From sequence record OP079919.1: a stretch of 64,000 bases of DNA. One strand, given 5' to 3'. Of this stretch, positions 48,543 to 52,885 are shown one piece after another. The stretch comes from Klebsiella phage KPN8. Every line of letters begins with the position of its first letter. Position 1 is the stretch's first letter. The position numbers and the translations under genes were made by a program. Below the pieces are notes generated by a model. The model did no database searches. It saw only the letters and a program-made list of their open reading frames with translations, and was not told the DNA's origin.

Positions 48543-49685
48543 TGAGTTTCGGGACTGGAGAAATTTCCGTCTCGATAAAAATTCAACTGAGAATTTTTAC
48601 TCTGGGGTTTTCGGCGGTTATAATATTTCACTGCGGGAATTTAAAAACTCAACGGGTTTACGATCCCGTATGTTTTTGAGTTTTATTTCCCGTATAAAAT
48701 ACTCCGTGCCGTAAGACAACACCCCACAGAAAAAACCTCGCCTTCGGAAAAATTCCTCGAAGGCGAGTTGCCATGATCTCACTCGAGCAAGAATCAATCC
48801 GACATACAATCCCAAACGGTCCGAAATTTTTTCTTCGGAATTTTGGTCATTGGTAAATTTTTACATACAAATCTATTTTATATTTGTATTTTTCGCGTGC
48901 GCGGATATTCCAAATTTTCAAAGATAATCTAAAACCGATTCCAATTCTGGGTTTTTATTTTTCTGTGTTTTGATTTTCCAAATCCAATTTTCAAAAATCT
49001 AAATCTAAAAAATCTAAAAAATTTAATACTCAAAAATCAATTTTTCCTAGGGGTCCTTATTACGCGTGCGTACGCCCGCACGCGTATAAAAAACAAATAT
49101 AATACTACGTATTATATTTTCCTTTGGTTTTATATTTTTAATTTATTAAAAATATATTAATATAAATTATTATATTTTTTATTAGTTTGTTTTTATAAAA
49201 AATATATAAATATATATTTATATATATTTATATTCATTAGGCGCGCGCCAGCGTGCGTGTGTGTACGTGCGCGCACGCGTAATAGAGAAGGGATGATAAA
49301 AATACAGGATTTAATCTGAGAAATTATCCAGAAAAAATCACACAGAGTAAAAAAATATTAACCGGAACGATTTTGAGAAGATTTAATACCCAACCTAGGA
49401 ATTCGTATCAGTCGGATGAAAAAGGGTTTTAGAAATCGATACAGGAAGTTTTAGAGGGTATTCCGATCGAGTTCTCAGGAAAGAATTATTCAGATTAAAA
49501 TATTTTAATCAGGGTAATTAATTTTTACAGTGAATTAAATTTATCGAGACGAGAAGATTTAATCGCAAAGTAATATCTTACGGAGAGTATAATCTTCTGA
49601 ACAGGACCGAGATCTCGAATAGCCAGATGGAAATTATCCATCCGTTCGAAAGTTAACCTGAAATATCCCTAAGAGGCCAAATCCT
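48543..49685. repeat. 1.1-kb AT-rich non-coding region with GC palindromes, iteron-like repeats and repeated 11-mers (candidate origin or regulatory hub)
   Basis: No ORF of 60 aa or more. Contains CGCGTGCGCG at 48895, the inverted repeat TACGCGTGCG-TACGCC-CGCACGCGTA at 49051-49076, the alternating purine/pyrimidine tract GGCGCGCGCC...CGTGCGTGTGTGTACGTGCGCGCACGCGT at 49230-49270, and a ~95% AT core at 49085-49229. AAATCTAAA and TTTTC(C)AAA direct repeats at 48900-49050. GAAATTATCCA twice (49310, 49620), GAAGATTTAAT twice (49367, 49543) and ATACAGGA twice (49292, 49429). Confidence 0.6.
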
Positions 49686-50420
49686 ATGCAACCAGCTAAC
49701 CCATGGAAAAACAACAAACACGTTAAATCACAAGATAACACCACCGCAGACCGGTACGAATCTCTTCTGCGTGAATTACCTGATGCGCTCAATGCGACTC
49801 CCAGAGACCCAGGTTACTTGATCGCTACCAAAAAGATTTTATTAGTACTGGAAATTCTCGAAGGAACTCGATTGTCAGTTCGTGACGTGATGGAAAACGA
49901 GAACCTGATTCGTAAAGTTCACGAGTTACTGGTGGAGTTGGGTTGGAAGCAAGCGATTAGCCGAGGGACTCAGGTTTTTGTTACTCACCAGGATTTAATT
50001 AAACCGGGTGTTTACCGATTGATTGATCTCGATGAAACCGCGATGGGTTACACCAAAGAGATCATGGATCATATTTTATTAGACCGTCGGTTCAGTGTTC
50101 GGGTGGACGGTAACGATATCCGGATTCTTCCTGGAGACCGTAGTGCGAGTAATCCGTTTAGTCTGCTGTCTGCTAACGTAGTAAGTAGCTGGCGTAAGGC
50201 GATACGGGAATACGATAAAACTGTTACCAGTAATCTTATTGGACATCTGACGGTTATCGGCGAAGATACGATGAGTTGCCCGCTCGATTTAAAACTCATC
50301 TTCGCCCTGCTGGATTACCTCGGCTGGCCGGAAATGTATTTAACCGGCGAACAGATCTTATTGAGTAACCCCATGGGTGATTATCAAACCCTCGAGGTGA
50401 ATTTTATCGATCCTGAGTAA
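49686..50420 (+). CDS. hypothetical protein (244 aa)
   Basis: First plus-strand gene after the AT-rich region; GAGG leader. Confidence 0.8.
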   Translation: MQPANPWKNNKHVKSQDNTTADRYESLLRELPDALNATPRDPGYLIATKKILLVLEILEGTRLSVRDVMENENLIRKVHELLVELGWKQAISRGTQVFVTHQDLIKPGVYRLIDLDETAMGYTKEIMDHILLDRRFSVRVDGNDIRILPGDRSASNPFSLLSANVVSSWRKAIREYDKTVTSNLIGHLTVIGEDTMSCPLDLKLIFALLDYLGWPEMYLTGEQILLSNPMGDYQTLEVNFIDPE

Positions 50421-50670
50421 TTCTCAACTACAGTCCGATGTTATTAGTAAAGATCTTTGGACTCCCTGTTGATTAACTAGCGACCCAACCTCATCTCTTT
50501 GAACCTCCTTACCACGAGCGAGATAACCAAAGTAGCTAGGGATTTTCAGGGGGTTCAATCCCCATTTTCGTTAATCTTATTAGACCCACTGTCCTAAGCC
50601 CATGAAGCCTTGAAATCTCTCCTGTAGCAGACAAAGTTTTCGTTCGGTGGGATAGATTAACGTTTTTATT

Positions 50671-50755
50671 CACGTCGTATTATCTGATGAGTCTTCGACG
50701 CTAAACAAGACGAAACCTAATGAATCTATTTTATTAGGTCATAATTCAACCTAAG
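50671..50755 (+). ncRNA. candidate type I hammerhead self-cleaving ribozyme
   Basis: UAUUAU-CUGAUGA(50684-90)-GUCUU(50691-95)-11 nt loop-AAGAC(50707-11)-GAAA(50712-15)-CCUAAU(50716-21)-11 nt loop-AUUAGG(50733-38)-U-C^AUAAU(50741-45). All invariant core positions are present, including the G10.1-C11.1, A15.1-U16.1 and C15.2-G16.2 pairs and the GUC cleavage triplet. Stem I is AUAAU pairing with AUUAU. Confidence 0.55.
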
Positions 50756-51400
50756 CGTTGAACGGGCAGTTAGGGGCAATGGTCCCCGAGGTCTTCAGCT
50801 TCTTCGCCTGCCCGCACTAAAAAGTTCTTTCATGATTAGGCGTGCCGCGCTCTACGAGCGGACAACAAGCAACCGAAAGTGGGAGAGAAAGAAGCGTGTC
50901 CGGTCGCTTGCCGGAAAGTTGGTTCAGGCGGGTTTCTTCCCAACCCAAACGACGCTGCCCAAGATAGGGCTGCAAGTCGTATTAGCGTATTATACCGGTA
51001 TGCGGGGTTTCTGCGATAAACCGGGTTAGCTACGGGTAAGAAACCGGCCGGAGTAATCAGCCTTTCGTATTCGGGTAACGTGAGTTATCGTAGAGATATC
51101 TCTGAGGGTTAGGCCAACCCCCGACGTTCTTCGAGTACGAAGGGAAGCTTGCTCAGCTTCGTAGAAACTCCAAAATCTCAGACGGTCACACCTCGCAATC
51201 TTACGGCAGTATGATTGCCTATTCGTCCTTTGTCGCTCACCAAGGGGCGAGTAGGAAACCTCTGCCACGGCGTTTCGATTGTTTGCCTTTGCCATAACCC
51301 TCCTGTATAGGTTGAGTGTTAACTTCCCCAAGAGTATAACCTGTTATCTCTCTCTTCGTGAGGAGTCGGAGATAATGGGATAAATTCTTAGGAGTTCGTT
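50741..51400 (+). ncRNA. GC-rich ORF-free structured region (candidate large ncRNA or long structured leader), unclassified
   Basis: About 52-55% GC against roughly 44% around it; many local hairpins (GGGCAG...CUGCCC, GGGGCAAUGGUCCCC, CGCUCUACGAGCG); only short, Arg-rich ORFs that look spurious. It lies between the predicted hammerhead cleavage site and the 62-aa ORF and terminator. Confidence 0.3.
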
Positions 51401-51589
51401 ATGTACACATACCAGTATACCGTGCGATACCGAATACCTAATTCTGTGTTTACGACTTACAGCGGAGAAATTACTTCTGACTGTTTGCTCAATAACGCTA
51501 ATCGCATTTTTGATGTCTTGCGTACTGAAGTTCTTAAAGCTGTTAACGTTAACTCGTTTAGCATTACGAACTTTAAGCTGAAAGAATAA
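51401..51589 (+). CDS. small hypothetical protein (62 aa)
   Basis: Strong TTAGGAGTTCGTT-ATG ribosome-binding context; terminator about 170 nt downstream. Confidence 0.5.
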   Translation: MYTYQYTVRYRIPNSVFTTYSGEITSDCLLNNANRIFDVLRTEVLKAVNVNSFSITNFKLKE

Positions 51590-51759
51590 GTCGAGCTACG
51601 CGCTCAACCTACCTTAGGGCCGGAAGTAGTTACGACTTAGGGGGAAAGAAGAGTCGTGCCTTTGAGTACCCCAACCCCATTCGTGTGGTGATCTTCCACA
51701 TCATCCCATGGATAATGCTGCATCATCATCATTAAAGTTCTACCATGAATTTTATTCCT

Positions 51760-51792
51760 TCCAGTAGGGTTCGTCCCTACTGGACTTTTTTC
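51760..51792 (+). terminator. rho-independent terminator closing the ncRNA/small-ORF transcription unit
   Basis: TCCAGTAGGG-TTCGT-CCCTACTGGA followed by CTTTTTTCG. Confidence 0.75.
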
Positions 51793-51922: not shown

Positions 51923-52885
51923 ATGAGCACATTACGTGTTTACGCGTGCGGCGGTACCGGTATTAATATTGCGTCTAAATGGATTGCCACCGGTGCGAAT
52001 ACGCTTATTCGTAAAGCCCAGTTCATTGGACTGGATAGCAGTGAAAACAACAAACCGTATAACGACGCCTTTAAGGTCGAACGTCCTGAAGGAACTCGTG
52101 GCGGTGGCAAAGAACGTAAGCTGATCGGTAAAATCGCTGCTGGGTTTATTGACAGTATTTTGACCAAACATAAACCGGGCGATTTCAACCTGATCATCAT
52201 GAACGCGGCTGGCGCTACCGGGAGTACGTTCGGCCCGACTCTGATCAACCGTCTCCTCACCCAGGGCGTTCCGGTCATTGCGTTGGTCGTAGGTGACCTG
52301 ACTTCTGAACTGGAAAACTACAACACGGTTAAAACGTTTGAAAGCCTGGACAACCAGCGCATCAATCTGAACGTGCCGGTTATCATCGACTACGTGGACA
52401 ACGCCAAATATCCCAGCCGTGGATTGGCCGACAAATATGCCATCGGCCGTCTTGATATCCTGAGCCTGTTCTTAACCGACGAACACGAAGAAAGCGATTT
52501 CCAAGACATCCGGAACCTGTTCTATTACAACCAGGTTACCAAGGCGGCGCCTACTCTTGCTCGTATCGACTTCTTGACCGATACTCAGTTAGACAACGTT
52601 ACTCCGGGGCTGGTTGCTGAATTTGGTTTGTATCGTAAAGCGGACGATATCGGTAGCCATATTAAAAATCTGGCATACCGTTCGACCGGCGTTATTCAGG
52701 AAGGTAGCACTAACTTCCCGGCTGGAATAGAACATCTCCACATGGTCTTTGACCACGATGCGACGATTAAAGATATCTTGGTTCTGGTCCAGGATCTTAA
52801 AGATATTGAGATCCAAAATAACGAACGTTTTAAATCCGCTCAGCAGGTTGGAAACGGCGGCGATGATTCTGGAATGTCCTACTAA
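51923..52885 (+). CDS. phuZ: PhuZ-like phage tubulin (TubZ/FtsZ superfamily GTPase)
   Basis: VYACGGTGINIA (G-box), GTRGGGKERK and NAAGATGSTFGP (tubulin signature-like); its 320-aa length matches PhuZ. Confidence 0.8.
   Translation: MSTLRVYACGGTGINIASKWIATGANTLIRKAQFIGLDSSENNKPYNDAFKVERPEGTRGGGKERKLIGKIAAGFIDSILTKHKPGDFNLIIMNAAGATGSTFGPTLINRLLTQGVPVIALVVGDLTSELENYNTVKTFESLDNQRINLNVPVIIDYVDNAKYPSRGLADKYAIGRLDILSLFLTDEHEESDFQDIRNLFYYNQVTKAAPTLARIDFLTDTQLDNVTPGLVAEFGLYRKADDIGSHIKNLAYRSTGVIQEGSTNFPAGIEHLHMVFDHDATIKDILVLVQDLKDIEIQNNERFKSAQQVGNGGDDSGMSY

What the first reader, a model, noticed from the sequence alone, without database searches (positions are those of the whole stretch)
50671..50755. 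Complete type I hammerhead ribozyme core in an intergenic region of a jumbo phage
On the plus strand at 50678-50745 every invariant hammerhead position is present in the right order and spacing. These are CUGAUGA (50684-50690), a 5-bp stem II closed by G10.1-C11.1 with an 11-nt loop, GAAA (50712-50715), a 7-bp closed stem III starting with A15.1-U16.1 and C15.2-G16.2, the GUC triplet (50738-50740), and a stem I formed by AUAAU (50741-50745) pairing with AUUAU (50679-50683) immediately 5' of CUGAUGA. That is type I topology, with predicted cleavage after C50740. Stem I continues with internal loops, as natural hammerheads need for tertiary contact with the stem II loop. A bare CUGAUGA is expected by chance in 64 kb, but the full core with two correctly closed helices and a matching stem I is not. 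Cleavage would separate the 49686..50420 mRNA from a downstream ~1-kb GC-rich untranslated RNA that ends at a strong terminator. I am not aware of hammerhead ribozymes being described in phiKZ-like phages.
Basis: seen in the sequence. Interest (0 to 1): 0.8.

Follow-up and report, generated by a model that had tools for sequence, protein, structure and literature searches.

The report
Conserved hammerhead ribozyme in jumbo phage
A small self-cutting RNA (a type I hammerhead ribozyme) sits in a long, highly conserved non-coding stretch upstream of the tubulin gene of a nucleus-forming Klebsiella jumbo phage; a distant relative keeps it with matching base-pair changes, so it is a real but new example of a well-known ribozyme class.

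Summary
At 50679-50745 (+) every hammerhead core position is present in type I order, with stems I, II and III of 5, 5 and 10 bp. In 2000 shuffles of the window nothing matched at this quality.

The window is a Miamivirus-like, PhuZ-encoding jumbo phage. Rfam does not call the motif: the best score is 24 bits against a cut-off of 48.5.

Comparative evidence is stronger. A metagenomic relative (L010, PhuZ only 49% identical) has the same element in the same place. The hammerhead is the only significant DNA similarity between the two loci (E=2e-12). All core bases are identical there. Stem I carries two compensatory double changes.

A 5-bp pseudoknot between the 5' flank (50673-77) and loop II (50696-700) carries a third.

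Downstream lies a roughly 655-nt strongly structured leader, a conserved 62-aa ORF and a terminator. So the downstream RNA is not purely untranslated.

The most likely role is self-cleavage after C50740, which sets a precise 5'-OH end on the downstream RNA. Cleavage itself is untested.

This is a new member of a known kind, of moderate interest.

The parts
50673..50677 (+). 5' strand of the predicted pseudoknot (CGUCG), one nucleotide (U50678) upstream of stem I
   Evidence: It is complementary to CGACG at 50696-50700. The linear fold pairs these two segments when stem II is not taken. In L010 the G-C pair becomes U-A.
50679..50683 (+). Stem I, 5' strand (AUUAU)
   Evidence: It pairs with 50741-45. 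A50679G in the Miami clade gives a G-U pair. L010 has GUCAU/AUGAC, which is two double compensatory changes.
50684..50690 (+). Hammerhead core C3-A9 (CUGAUGA)
   Evidence: It is invariant in the six Miami-group genomes, L051 and L010.
50691..50711 (+). Stem II hairpin: GUCUU/AAGAC with G10.1-C11.1. The 11-nt loop is 50696-50706, and its first 5 nt form the pseudoknot.
   Evidence: It appears in the minimum-free-energy fold of the isolated element. The stem is invariant in all lineages. L051 changes only loop positions 50701-02, which lie outside the pseudoknot.
50712..50715 (+). Hammerhead core G12 A13 A14 plus A15.1 (GAAA)
   Evidence: It is invariant in all lineages.
50715..50739 (+). Stem III hairpin (10 bp including G50722-U50732, loop UCUAU). 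It starts with A15.1-U16.1 and C15.2-G16.2.
   Evidence: L010 shortens the distal part and has one A-U to G-U change. L051 deletes G50722 and keeps a continuous 9-bp helix.
50740..50740 (+). C17; predicted cleavage between C50740 and A50741
   Evidence: The GUC triplet is conserved in all lineages. Cleavage has not been tested.
50741..50745 (+). Stem I, 3' strand (AUAAU). This is all of the ribozyme that would remain on the downstream product.
50746..51400 (+). Roughly 655-nt GC-rich, strongly structured non-coding leader between the ribozyme and the small ORF
   Evidence: Fold z-score is -6.9 on the + strand and -4.25 on the - strand. It is 97.6-97.9% identical across the Miami group, while PhuZ third codon positions are 83-93% identical. 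There is no conserved ORF by tblastx. Local helices carry 10 one-sided compatible changes and 1 compensatory change. No Rfam family matches.
51401..51589 (+). Conserved 62-aa ORF of unknown function, with AGGAG at 51390-94
   Evidence: Protein alignment A2 gives 63% identity in L009 and 34% in L010. It is annotated in the relatives. No Pfam or PHROG family matches. Only three clusters exist among 5.8 billion proteins.
51760..51784 (+). Strong intrinsic terminator ending the transcription unit upstream of phuZ
   Evidence: It has a 10-bp stem with 6 G-C pairs, followed by CUUUUUU. Equivalent terminators are present in L009 and L010.

Best explanation
**What it is.** The element at 50673-50745 (+) is a genuine type I hammerhead self-cleaving ribozyme. 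It has three parts:
- a three-way junction with the full consensus core;
- 5-bp stems I and II, and a closed stem III;
- a 5-bp pseudoknot between the 5' flank and the first five nucleotides of loop II. This pseudoknot would hold stems I and II side by side, as in the many pseudoknot-type hammerheads described by Perreault et al. 2011.

**Shown.**
- The motif is present.
- It is improbable by chance.
- It is under purifying selection.
- It is conserved with compensatory changes in a distant relative.

**Inferred.**
- The element is transcribed on the + strand as part of the unit that ends at the terminator at 51760-84.
- The RNA cuts itself after C50740.
- The upstream fragment keeps almost the whole ribozyme as a structured 3' end with a 2',3'-cyclic phosphate. 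In this phage that fragment is the 3' region of the 244-aa gene transcript. In L010 it is a roughly 250-nt leader.
- The downstream fragment keeps only AUAAU. It gains a promoter-independent, precisely defined 5'-OH end on the roughly 655-nt structured leader plus 62-aa-ORF RNA.
- This most likely insulates the downstream RNA from the fast-evolving upstream sequence and stabilises it. That is the same logic as 5' hammerheads used in engineered constructs.
For: **Motif and chance**
- The sequence and descriptor agree on the motif.
- Chance expectation is 0.0035 per window at relaxed stringency and 0 in 2000 shuffles at the observed quality.
- The isolated element folds into stems II and III as its minimum-free-energy structure.

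**Constraint within the Miami group**
- The hammerhead plus pseudoknot (50669-50745) shows 1 change in 77 nt against all relatives. That change is A-U to G-U in stem I.
- The segment just upstream (50591-50668) is 77% identical, the upstream gene 81%, and PhuZ third codon positions 83-93%.
- L051 varies only in loop II outside the pseudoknot and in the distal part of stem III.

**Distant homologue L010** (PhuZ 49% identical, same gene order)
- The hammerhead is the only significant nucleotide similarity in the 2.2-kb locus: 80% over 79 nt, E=1.8e-12.
- The reciprocal blastn of L010 against 50,697 phage genomes hits only this element.
- On the three-sequence alignment, 25 of 25 pairs are standard in every sequence.
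- Three pairs change on both sides: two in stem I and one in the pseudoknot.
- With partners slid by 1-3 columns, only 27-56% of cells pair and there are no double changes.
- Stem I length (5 bp), stem II length (5 bp) and the 1-nt linker to the pseudoknot are kept while the sequences differ.

**Precedent.** Hammerheads are frequent in phages and prophages. About 40% use a pseudoknot between stems I and II, and this occurs in all three topologies (PMC3088659).
Against: - No Rfam model reaches its gathering score in either lineage. The scores are RF00008 24.2 and 19.1 bits against a cut-off of 48.5, aligned in a wrong type III register. RF03152 scores 21.0 and 18.8 bits against 56.3.
- Only two independent lineages exist, so the covariation rests on three double changes. 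42 of 500 column shuffles reach the same values.
- Stem I in this phage is five A-U/U-A pairs and is not predicted by a nested-structure fold.
- The whole 1-kb region is conserved, so conservation within the Miami group alone is not specific to the ribozyme.
- There are no transcript data and no cleavage assay.
- The proposed biological role is inference.
Confidence: 0.82

Rival explanations
1. A conserved structural module of the larger non-coding RNA happens to match the hammerhead consensus. It could be a three-way junction used for folding or for protein binding, and it does not self-cleave in vivo.
For: - The entire 50421-51400 region is conserved and highly structured, so conservation within the Miami group is not specific to the ribozyme.
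- Rfam scores are sub-threshold.
- Perreault et al. list inactive hammerhead-like RNAs, including one from a Xanthomonas phage.
Against: - In L010 everything around the element has diverged beyond DNA recognition, yet all unpaired core nucleotides are identical. A mere junction would not require an invariant CUGAUGA, GAAA and GUC.
- The inactive examples cited in the literature deviate from the core consensus. This element does not.
Confidence: 0.1
2. A chance match to the hammerhead descriptor with no function of its own.
For: - A first-stage reader scanning many windows will meet some chance matches.
- The bare CUGAUGA heptamer occurs 16 times in the window, counting both strands.
Against: - 0 of 2000 shuffles reach the observed quality.
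- The element is the best-conserved DNA segment between two lineages whose PhuZ proteins are only 49% identical, and it shows compensatory changes.
Confidence: 0.02
3. The ribozyme is active, but its conserved purpose is to release the upstream fragment rather than to trim the downstream RNA. That fragment carries an anti-Shine-Dalgarno-like box, ACCUCCUUA. It might act as a small RNA, or its removal might take away a cis-repressor of the small ORF's ribosome-binding site.
For: - ACCUCCUUA is identical to the 3' end of 16S rRNA (my own knowledge).
- It occurs once in the 64-kb window, at 50503-11 on the + strand.
- It occurs once in L010, at 470-478. L010 also has a second UCCUCCUUA at 517-525.
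- In both lineages the box lies upstream of the ribozyme, and it occurs nowhere else in about 194 kb of a sister genome.
- The type I topology leaves the ribozyme on the upstream product.
Against: - A single 9-mer is expected 0.6 times per window by chance, and the 21-nt blastn match has E=0.28.
- In this phage a terminator-like hairpin (50549-63) lies between the box and the ribozyme.
- No pairing partner has been demonstrated.
Confidence: 0.15

Closest known systems
Bacterial and phage hammerhead ribozymes with a pseudoknot between stems I and II (Perreault et al. 2011, PMC3088659)
   Same: - Full consensus core and a three-way junction.
- A short stem II closed by G-C.
- A 5-6-bp Watson-Crick pseudoknot linking one stem's loop to the tail of the other stem through a linker of 0-1 nt.
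- An intergenic position in a phage transcript next to small genes.
   Different: - The topology here is type I, with loop II pairing to the 5' tail of stem I. The best-studied pseudoknot examples are type II, with loop I pairing to the 3' tail of stem II.
- There is a single copy per genome, not arrays flanking genes.
- The host is a lytic, nucleus-forming jumbo phage, not a prophage.
Rfam hammerhead families RF00163 (type I), RF00008 (type III) and RF03152 (RAGATH-1 hammerhead)
   Same: The core sequence and stem II align to RF00008. The type I arrangement aligns to positions 25-77 of RF03152.
   Different: - Scores are less than half the gathering thresholds.
- The RF00008 alignment uses the wrong GUC (50674-76) and a mismatched stem III.
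- The 5' third of RF03152 is absent.
Engineered 5' hammerheads (RiboJ-type insulators and ribozyme-flanked guide RNAs). This comparison rests on my own knowledge.
   Same: The ribozyme lies upstream of its cargo. Stem I is formed with the first nucleotides of the cargo. Cleavage leaves a short, defined 5'-OH leader and uncouples the cargo from upstream sequence. A hairpin follows directly (50746-61).
   Different: This is a natural element, and its function has not been shown. The cargo is a 655-nt structured leader plus a small ORF.
   Same: L045 has a type I hammerhead with 5-bp stems I and II and an 11-bp stem III in an intergenic spacer of a viral contig.
   Different: There is no sequence homology outside the core. 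L045 has a second, type II hammerhead 440 nt upstream, so that the pair flanks small ORFs.

Membership tests
Hammerhead ribozyme (class) | Conserved core nucleotides C3 U4 G5 A6 N7 G8 A9, G12 A13 A14, and a cleavage-site H17 that is not G | tested here: met
   The core is CUGAUGA at 50684-90, GAA at 50712-14 and C17 at 50740. It is identical in six Miami-group genomes, L051 and L010.
Hammerhead ribozyme (class) | Three helices around the core, with A15.1-U16.1 closing stem III and a purine-pyrimidine 10.1-11.1 pair closing stem II | tested here: met
   Stems I, II and III have 5, 5 and 10 bp. The closing pairs are A50715-U50739 and G50691-C50711. All 25 pairs are standard in all three distinct sequences.
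Hammerhead ribozyme (class) | Helices supported by covariation among homologues | tested here: met
   Stem I has two double changes and the pseudoknot has one. Stem III has one G-U change. No substitution breaks a pair. Power is limited because only two lineages exist, and 42 of 500 shuffles reach the same values.
Hammerhead ribozyme (class) | [quoted passage not shown] | tested here: inconclusive
   A 5-bp pseudoknot (50673-77 with 50696-700) is predicted. It is kept as a 6-bp pseudoknot in L010, with one G-C to U-A change. By my own estimate, the chance of a 5-bp complement in one sequence is about 0.05. It has not been probed structurally.
Hammerhead ribozyme (class) | Site-specific self-cleavage that yields 2',3'-cyclic phosphate and 5'-OH ends | not testable with these tools
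   This requires in vitro transcription and cleavage assays, or end-mapping in infected cells.
Rfam RF00008 / RF00163 / RF03152 | Covariance-model score at or above the family's gathering threshold | tested here: not met
   The whole window gives no match at gathering scores. RF00008 scores 24.2 bits (cut-off 48.5, E=0.024 for 1.5 kb). RF03152 scores 21.0 bits (cut-off 56.3). In L010 the scores are 19.1 and 18.8 bits. The RF00163 score is not shown, because only the best match of a clan is kept.
Type I topology | Stem I is open (5' and 3' ends), and stems II and III are closed by loops | tested here: met
   The order along the strand is stem I 5' strand, CUGAUGA, stem II hairpin, GAAA, stem III hairpin, UC, stem I 3' strand.

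The most novel reading that the evidence does not exclude
The hammerhead may be the 5'-processing module of a previously undescribed RNA-centred expression unit. The unit is conserved upstream of phuZ in a clade of nucleus-forming jumbo phages.

Its parts, in order, are:
- an upstream fragment carrying a mimic of the 16S rRNA anti-Shine-Dalgarno tail;
- the ribozyme;
- a 350-650-nt highly structured RNA with no Rfam family;
- a clade-specific 62-aa ORF;
- a conserved 3'-UTR element.

Cleavage, with the resulting 5'-OH end or the release of the anti-SD-bearing fragment, would have a regulatory role. That role could be in translation control or in RNA handling between the phage nucleus and the cytoplasm.
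Probability: 0.25. Interest if true: 0.7.

Novelty: new member of a known kind. Interest (0 to 1): 0.5.

Why it matters
- **Known class, new host group.** Hammerheads are common in prophages and some phages. I found no report of one in phiKZ-like (Chimalliviridae) phages in the searchable literature.
- **Missed by standard annotation.** Rfam-based annotation does not detect this element.
- **Biological relevance.** In these phages transcription is separated from translation by a protein shell. Very little is known about their RNA processing and export. A self-cleaving element with a fixed place next to phuZ offers a concrete, mutable handle on it.
- **An unclassified RNA.** It also marks the 5' edge of a large, strongly conserved structured RNA of unknown class.
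- **Method.** The case shows that synteny-guided comparison can validate sub-threshold ribozyme candidates.

Tried and rejected
**Searches that found nothing useful**
- Rfam at gathering scores gave nothing on the whole window, on relatives, or on 145 kb of a sister genome.
- ARAGORN found no tRNA or tmRNA in the window. The T-loop-like hairpin at 50549-63 is not a tRNA.
- An IMG/VR scan with PhuZ found no relatives.
- An IMG/VR scan with the stem II-specific pattern found nothing.
Most are unrelated type III hammerheads, and one (L033) is identical to the window at this site.
- nhmmer with the 980-nt region found nothing in the Aphrodite1 locus. Covariance model R1 found nothing in Aphrodite1, PDCC-1, RisingSun or more distant chimallivirus loci.
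- A profile search with the 62-aa ORF found only three clusters, all already in hand.

**Hits rejected**
- Weak descriptor hits at CUGAGGA in Aphrodite1 and PDCC-1 lie inside an AraC-like coding sequence. I rejected them as chance.
- Other weak 4/3/3-bp hits lie inside genes.
- The RF00008 type III register, with GUC at 50674-76, has no stem I hairpin and a mismatched stem III.

**Contigs too short**
- L009 (PhuZ 74% identical) starts only 243 nt upstream of the small ORF and lacks the ribozyme region.
- L044 is also too short.

**Alternative readings excluded**
- Coding potential of 50746-51400: tblastx against L009 and L010 shows only the 62-aa ORF. The minus-strand CDSs annotated there in phage Miami are therefore probably over-calls.
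- A minus-strand Shine-Dalgarno reading of the anti-SD box: the 5-codon ORF that follows it is not conserved in L010.
- A second ribozyme that could yield a circular RNA: none was found.

Full report
**1. The observation**

- AUUAU (50679-83)
- CUGAUGA (50684-90)
- Stem II GUCUU/AAGAC (50691-95 / 50707-11), closed by G10.1-C11.1, with an 11-nt loop
- GAAA (50712-15)
- Stem III beginning A15.1-U16.1 and C15.2-G16.2
- GUC (50738-40)
- AUAAU (50741-45), complementary to 50679-83

Stem III is in fact 10 bp including one G-U pair (50715-24 / 50730-39), with a 5-nt loop.

My own descriptor finds exactly one type I hammerhead in the window on either strand, and it is this one. I ran 2000 dinucleotide-preserving shuffles of the window:
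- A relaxed type I descriptor (at least 4/3/3 bp) occurred 0.0035 times per window.
- The observed quality (at least 5/5/7 bp) never occurred.
- The bare heptamer occurs about 7.6 times per shuffled window.

The isolated 67-mer folds into stems II and III as its minimum-free-energy structure. The weak all-A-U stem I is not predicted by nested folding.

**2. Context**

The window is a Miamivirus-like jumbo phage. It is 97% identical to Raoultella phage VB_ZK_P1 and 94% identical to Klebsiella phage Miami, phiKp_32, YC1 and 'Stenotrophomonas' phage BUCTxx100. The gene at 51923-52885 is the phage tubulin PhuZ (PHROG 4733, E=2e-74).

The ribozyme lies in a 980-nt gene-free stretch (50421-51400). 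That stretch sits between a 244-aa gene of unknown function and a 62-aa ORF. All of these are on the + strand. A strong terminator at 51760-84 precedes phuZ.

**3. Database models**

Rfam at gathering thresholds finds nothing in the whole window. At relaxed thresholds:
- RF00008 (type III) gives 24.2 bits (cut-off 48.5; E=0.024 for 1.5 kb). It uses a different GUC (50674-76) and a mismatched stem III.
- RF03152 aligns in the correct type I register at 50678-50745, at only 21 bits.

**4. Conservation within the Miami group**

The whole non-coding stretch is unusually conserved (alignment A1). Against Miami, segment identities are:

| Segment | Identity |
|---|---|
| 244-aa gene | 81% (third positions 62%) |
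| 50591-50668 | 77% |
| Hammerhead plus 5' flank, 50669-50745 | 98.7% |
| 50746-51280 | 97.9% |
| PhuZ | 97.4% (third positions 93.5%) |

Against VB_ZK_P1, PhuZ third positions are 82.6% identical. The hammerhead is still 98.7% identical and the downstream RNA 97.6%.

The only change in the ribozyme is A50679G, which turns an A-U pair into G-U in stem I.

A further variant from a public read set (L051) differs at three sites:
- two loop II bases (50701-02);
- loss of G50722 in distal stem III, which leaves a continuous 9-bp helix.

Both kinds of change are at positions where a hammerhead tolerates variation.

The ribozyme sits exactly at the 5' edge of the conserved block.

**5. A distant homologue**

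PhuZ homologues in a 5.8-billion-protein collection include one at 49% identity (P0003). Its contig (L010, Logan SRR21633404) has the same gene order:
- non-coding RNA;
- 63-aa ORF, 34% identical to the window's ORF;
- terminator;
- phuZ.

At L010 529-599 it reads:

ACGUCU-U-GUCAU-CUGAUGA-GUCUU-GAGACGUUAAACA-AAGAC-GAAA-CCUAGUG-AUUA-UAUUAGG-UC-AUGAC

Every core nucleotide is identical. Stems I and II are again 5 bp.

blastn of the 2.2-kb window locus against L010 finds one significant match, and it is the hammerhead: 50666-50742 against 523-596, 80% identity, E=1.8e-12. Not even the coding regions match at the DNA level. The reciprocal search of L010 against 50,697 phage genomes returns only the Miami-group hammerhead and a fragment of phuZ.

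On the alignment of the three distinct sequences (A3), counting gives:
- All 25 proposed pairs are standard pairs in every sequence.
- Stem I has two double changes: U-A to C-G, and A-U (G-U in the Miami clade) to G-C.
- Stem III has one A-U to G-U change.
- Sliding the partners by 1-3 columns drops pairing to 27-56% and leaves no double changes.

The sample is small. 42 of 500 column shuffles do as well, so the covariation is supportive rather than statistically decisive on its own.

**6. Tertiary contact**

I could not confirm the proposed continuation of stem I through internal loops.

Instead, CGUCG (50673-77) is complementary to CGACG, the first five nucleotides of loop II (50696-50700). 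CGUCG lies one nucleotide upstream of stem I. L010 has ACGUCU / AGACGU at the equivalent place, again with a one-nucleotide U linker. The terminal G-C pair is replaced there by U-A.

Perreault et al. 2011 showed that about 40% of hammerheads, in all three topologies, use such a pseudoknot. They also showed that it is needed for fast cleavage at 0.5 mM Mg2+ (PMC3088659).

**7. What lies downstream and upstream**

*Downstream.* 50741-51400 is non-coding: tblastx against L009 and L010 detects only the 62-aa ORF. It is strongly structured:
- z = -6.9 on the + strand and -4.25 on the - strand;
- z = -4.65 for the equivalent 351 nt of L010.

Substitutions in the Miami group are mostly G-C/G-U-type changes in local helices, with one compensatory pair. 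No Rfam family matches. The small ORF is real but has no homologues outside this clade.

*Upstream.* L010 has no same-strand gene upstream of the ribozyme. It has an AT-rich region and a roughly 250-nt leader. Splitting an upstream mRNA from the downstream RNA therefore cannot be the conserved function.

In both lineages the upstream fragment contains ACCUCCUUA, the sequence of the 16S rRNA 3' end. This 9-mer occurs nowhere else in the window or in about 194 kb of a sister genome.

**8. Copy number and spread**

I found no second copy and no other credible hammerhead, of any topology, in these places:
- the window;
- the remaining ~190 kb of BUCTxx100;
- 50 kb of VB_ZK_P1;
- the phuZ neighbourhoods of Aphrodite1, PDCC-1, RisingSun and three more distant chimalliviruses.

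Pattern scans of metagenomes and IMG/VR returned many unrelated hammerheads. These include type I examples in viral contigs, which fits the known abundance of the class in phages.

**9. Mechanism**

*Shown:* a consensus type I hammerhead, under purifying selection, conserved with pair-preserving changes in two lineages.

*Inferred:*
- co-transcriptional self-cleavage after C50740;
- the upstream product retains the ribozyme as a structured 3' end with a 2',3'-cyclic phosphate;
- the downstream product begins with 5'-OH-AUAAU followed by a hairpin (50746-61).

The type I orientation leaves only five ribozyme nucleotides on the downstream RNA. The conservation boundary falls at the ribozyme. The upstream sequence is variable. 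Together these fit a role in giving the structured leader and small-ORF RNA a defined end that does not depend on the promoter or on upstream context.

From general knowledge, a 5'-OH end is a poor substrate for 5'-end-dependent RNase E attack. The same logic is used in engineered 5' hammerhead insulators.

An alternative or additional role is release of the fragment that carries the anti-SD box. This cannot be excluded.

**10. Verdict**

The element is a new member of a well-known ribozyme class. It lies in a phage group where I found no prior report, and current Rfam models miss it.

Novelty lies less in the ribozyme than in its fixed association with a large unclassified structured RNA and a micro-ORF next to phuZ. 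Cleavage remains to be demonstrated.

Noticed in passing
window 50503-50511 (+); L010 470-478 and 517-525: ACCUCCUUA, identical to the 3' tail (anti-Shine-Dalgarno) of 16S rRNA, occurs once in the 64-kb window and once in L010. L010 also has a second UCCUCCUUA. In both lineages the box is on the RNA strand upstream of the hammerhead. It is absent from about 194 kb of the sister genome BUCTxx100. It could pair with Shine-Dalgarno sequences, for example AGGAG at 51390-94.
   Followed up: partly
window 50746-51400 (+): A roughly 655-nt GC-rich non-coding RNA has a very strong fold signal (z=-6.9) and is 97.6-97.9% identical across the Miami group. No Rfam family matches. A shorter counterpart (about 350 nt, z=-4.65) is present in L010. 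Its class and function are unknown.
   Followed up: partly
window 51401-51589 (+): A 62-aa ORF with a strong ribosome-binding site is conserved in L009 (63%) and L010 (34%). It has no Pfam or PHROG family and no other homologue among 5.8 billion proteins.
   Followed up: partly
window 51590-51640; L009 432-475; L010 1135-1175: The 3' UTR of the small ORF starts with a conserved element, GUCG...CCUUAGGRCCG...CGAC, in all three lineages. A UAAUGGRA motif lies about 20 nt upstream of the ORF's Shine-Dalgarno sequence in all three.
   Followed up: no
window 50549-50563 (+): The hairpin GGGGGUUCAAUCCCC has a T-loop-like loop and is followed by AUUUUCGUU. It is a weak terminator candidate between the 244-aa gene and the ribozyme. 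In L051 the U-tract is 7 U, and in Miami it is interrupted. ARAGORN finds no tRNA there.
   Followed up: partly
window 49686-50420 and 50591-50668: The 244-aa gene and the spacer just upstream of the ribozyme are local divergence hot spots. They are 81% and 77% identical to Miami at the nucleotide level, against 95-98% for neighbouring segments. This suggests mosaic exchange or fast evolution, ending sharply at the ribozyme.
   Followed up: partly
window 48543-49685: This 1.1-kb AT-rich intergenic region (GC down to 20-30%) lies between divergently transcribed genes. It is probably a promoter hub for the unit that contains the ribozyme.
   Followed up: no
L043 3902-6000; L006 5503-6000; L007 5363-6000: Other chimalliviruses also have long gene-free stretches directly upstream of phuZ. 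L043 has 2.1 kb with two tRNA genes. Aphrodite1 and PDCC-1 have 500-640 nt of GC-rich, apparently structured RNA ending in a terminator. No hammerhead is present in any of them.
   Followed up: partly
L049 12509-13540 and 14111-16261 (BUCTxx100 112.5-116.3 kb, outside the window): A sister genome has further large stretches (1.0 and 2.1 kb) without annotated genes. No Rfam family matches at gathering scores.
   Followed up: no
L045 2745-2791 and 3229-3290 (IMG/VR UViG_3300007609_000823): An unrelated viral contig carries a type II and a type I hammerhead about 440 nt apart, flanking small ORFs. This is the arrangement described for prophages by Perreault et al..
   Followed up: partly
L002 3370-3549 (-) and 3627-3941 (-) (phage Miami annotation): Two minus-strand 'hypothetical protein' CDSs are annotated inside the structured RNA region of phage Miami. 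They have no support from conservation at the protein level and are probably over-calls.
   Followed up: partly
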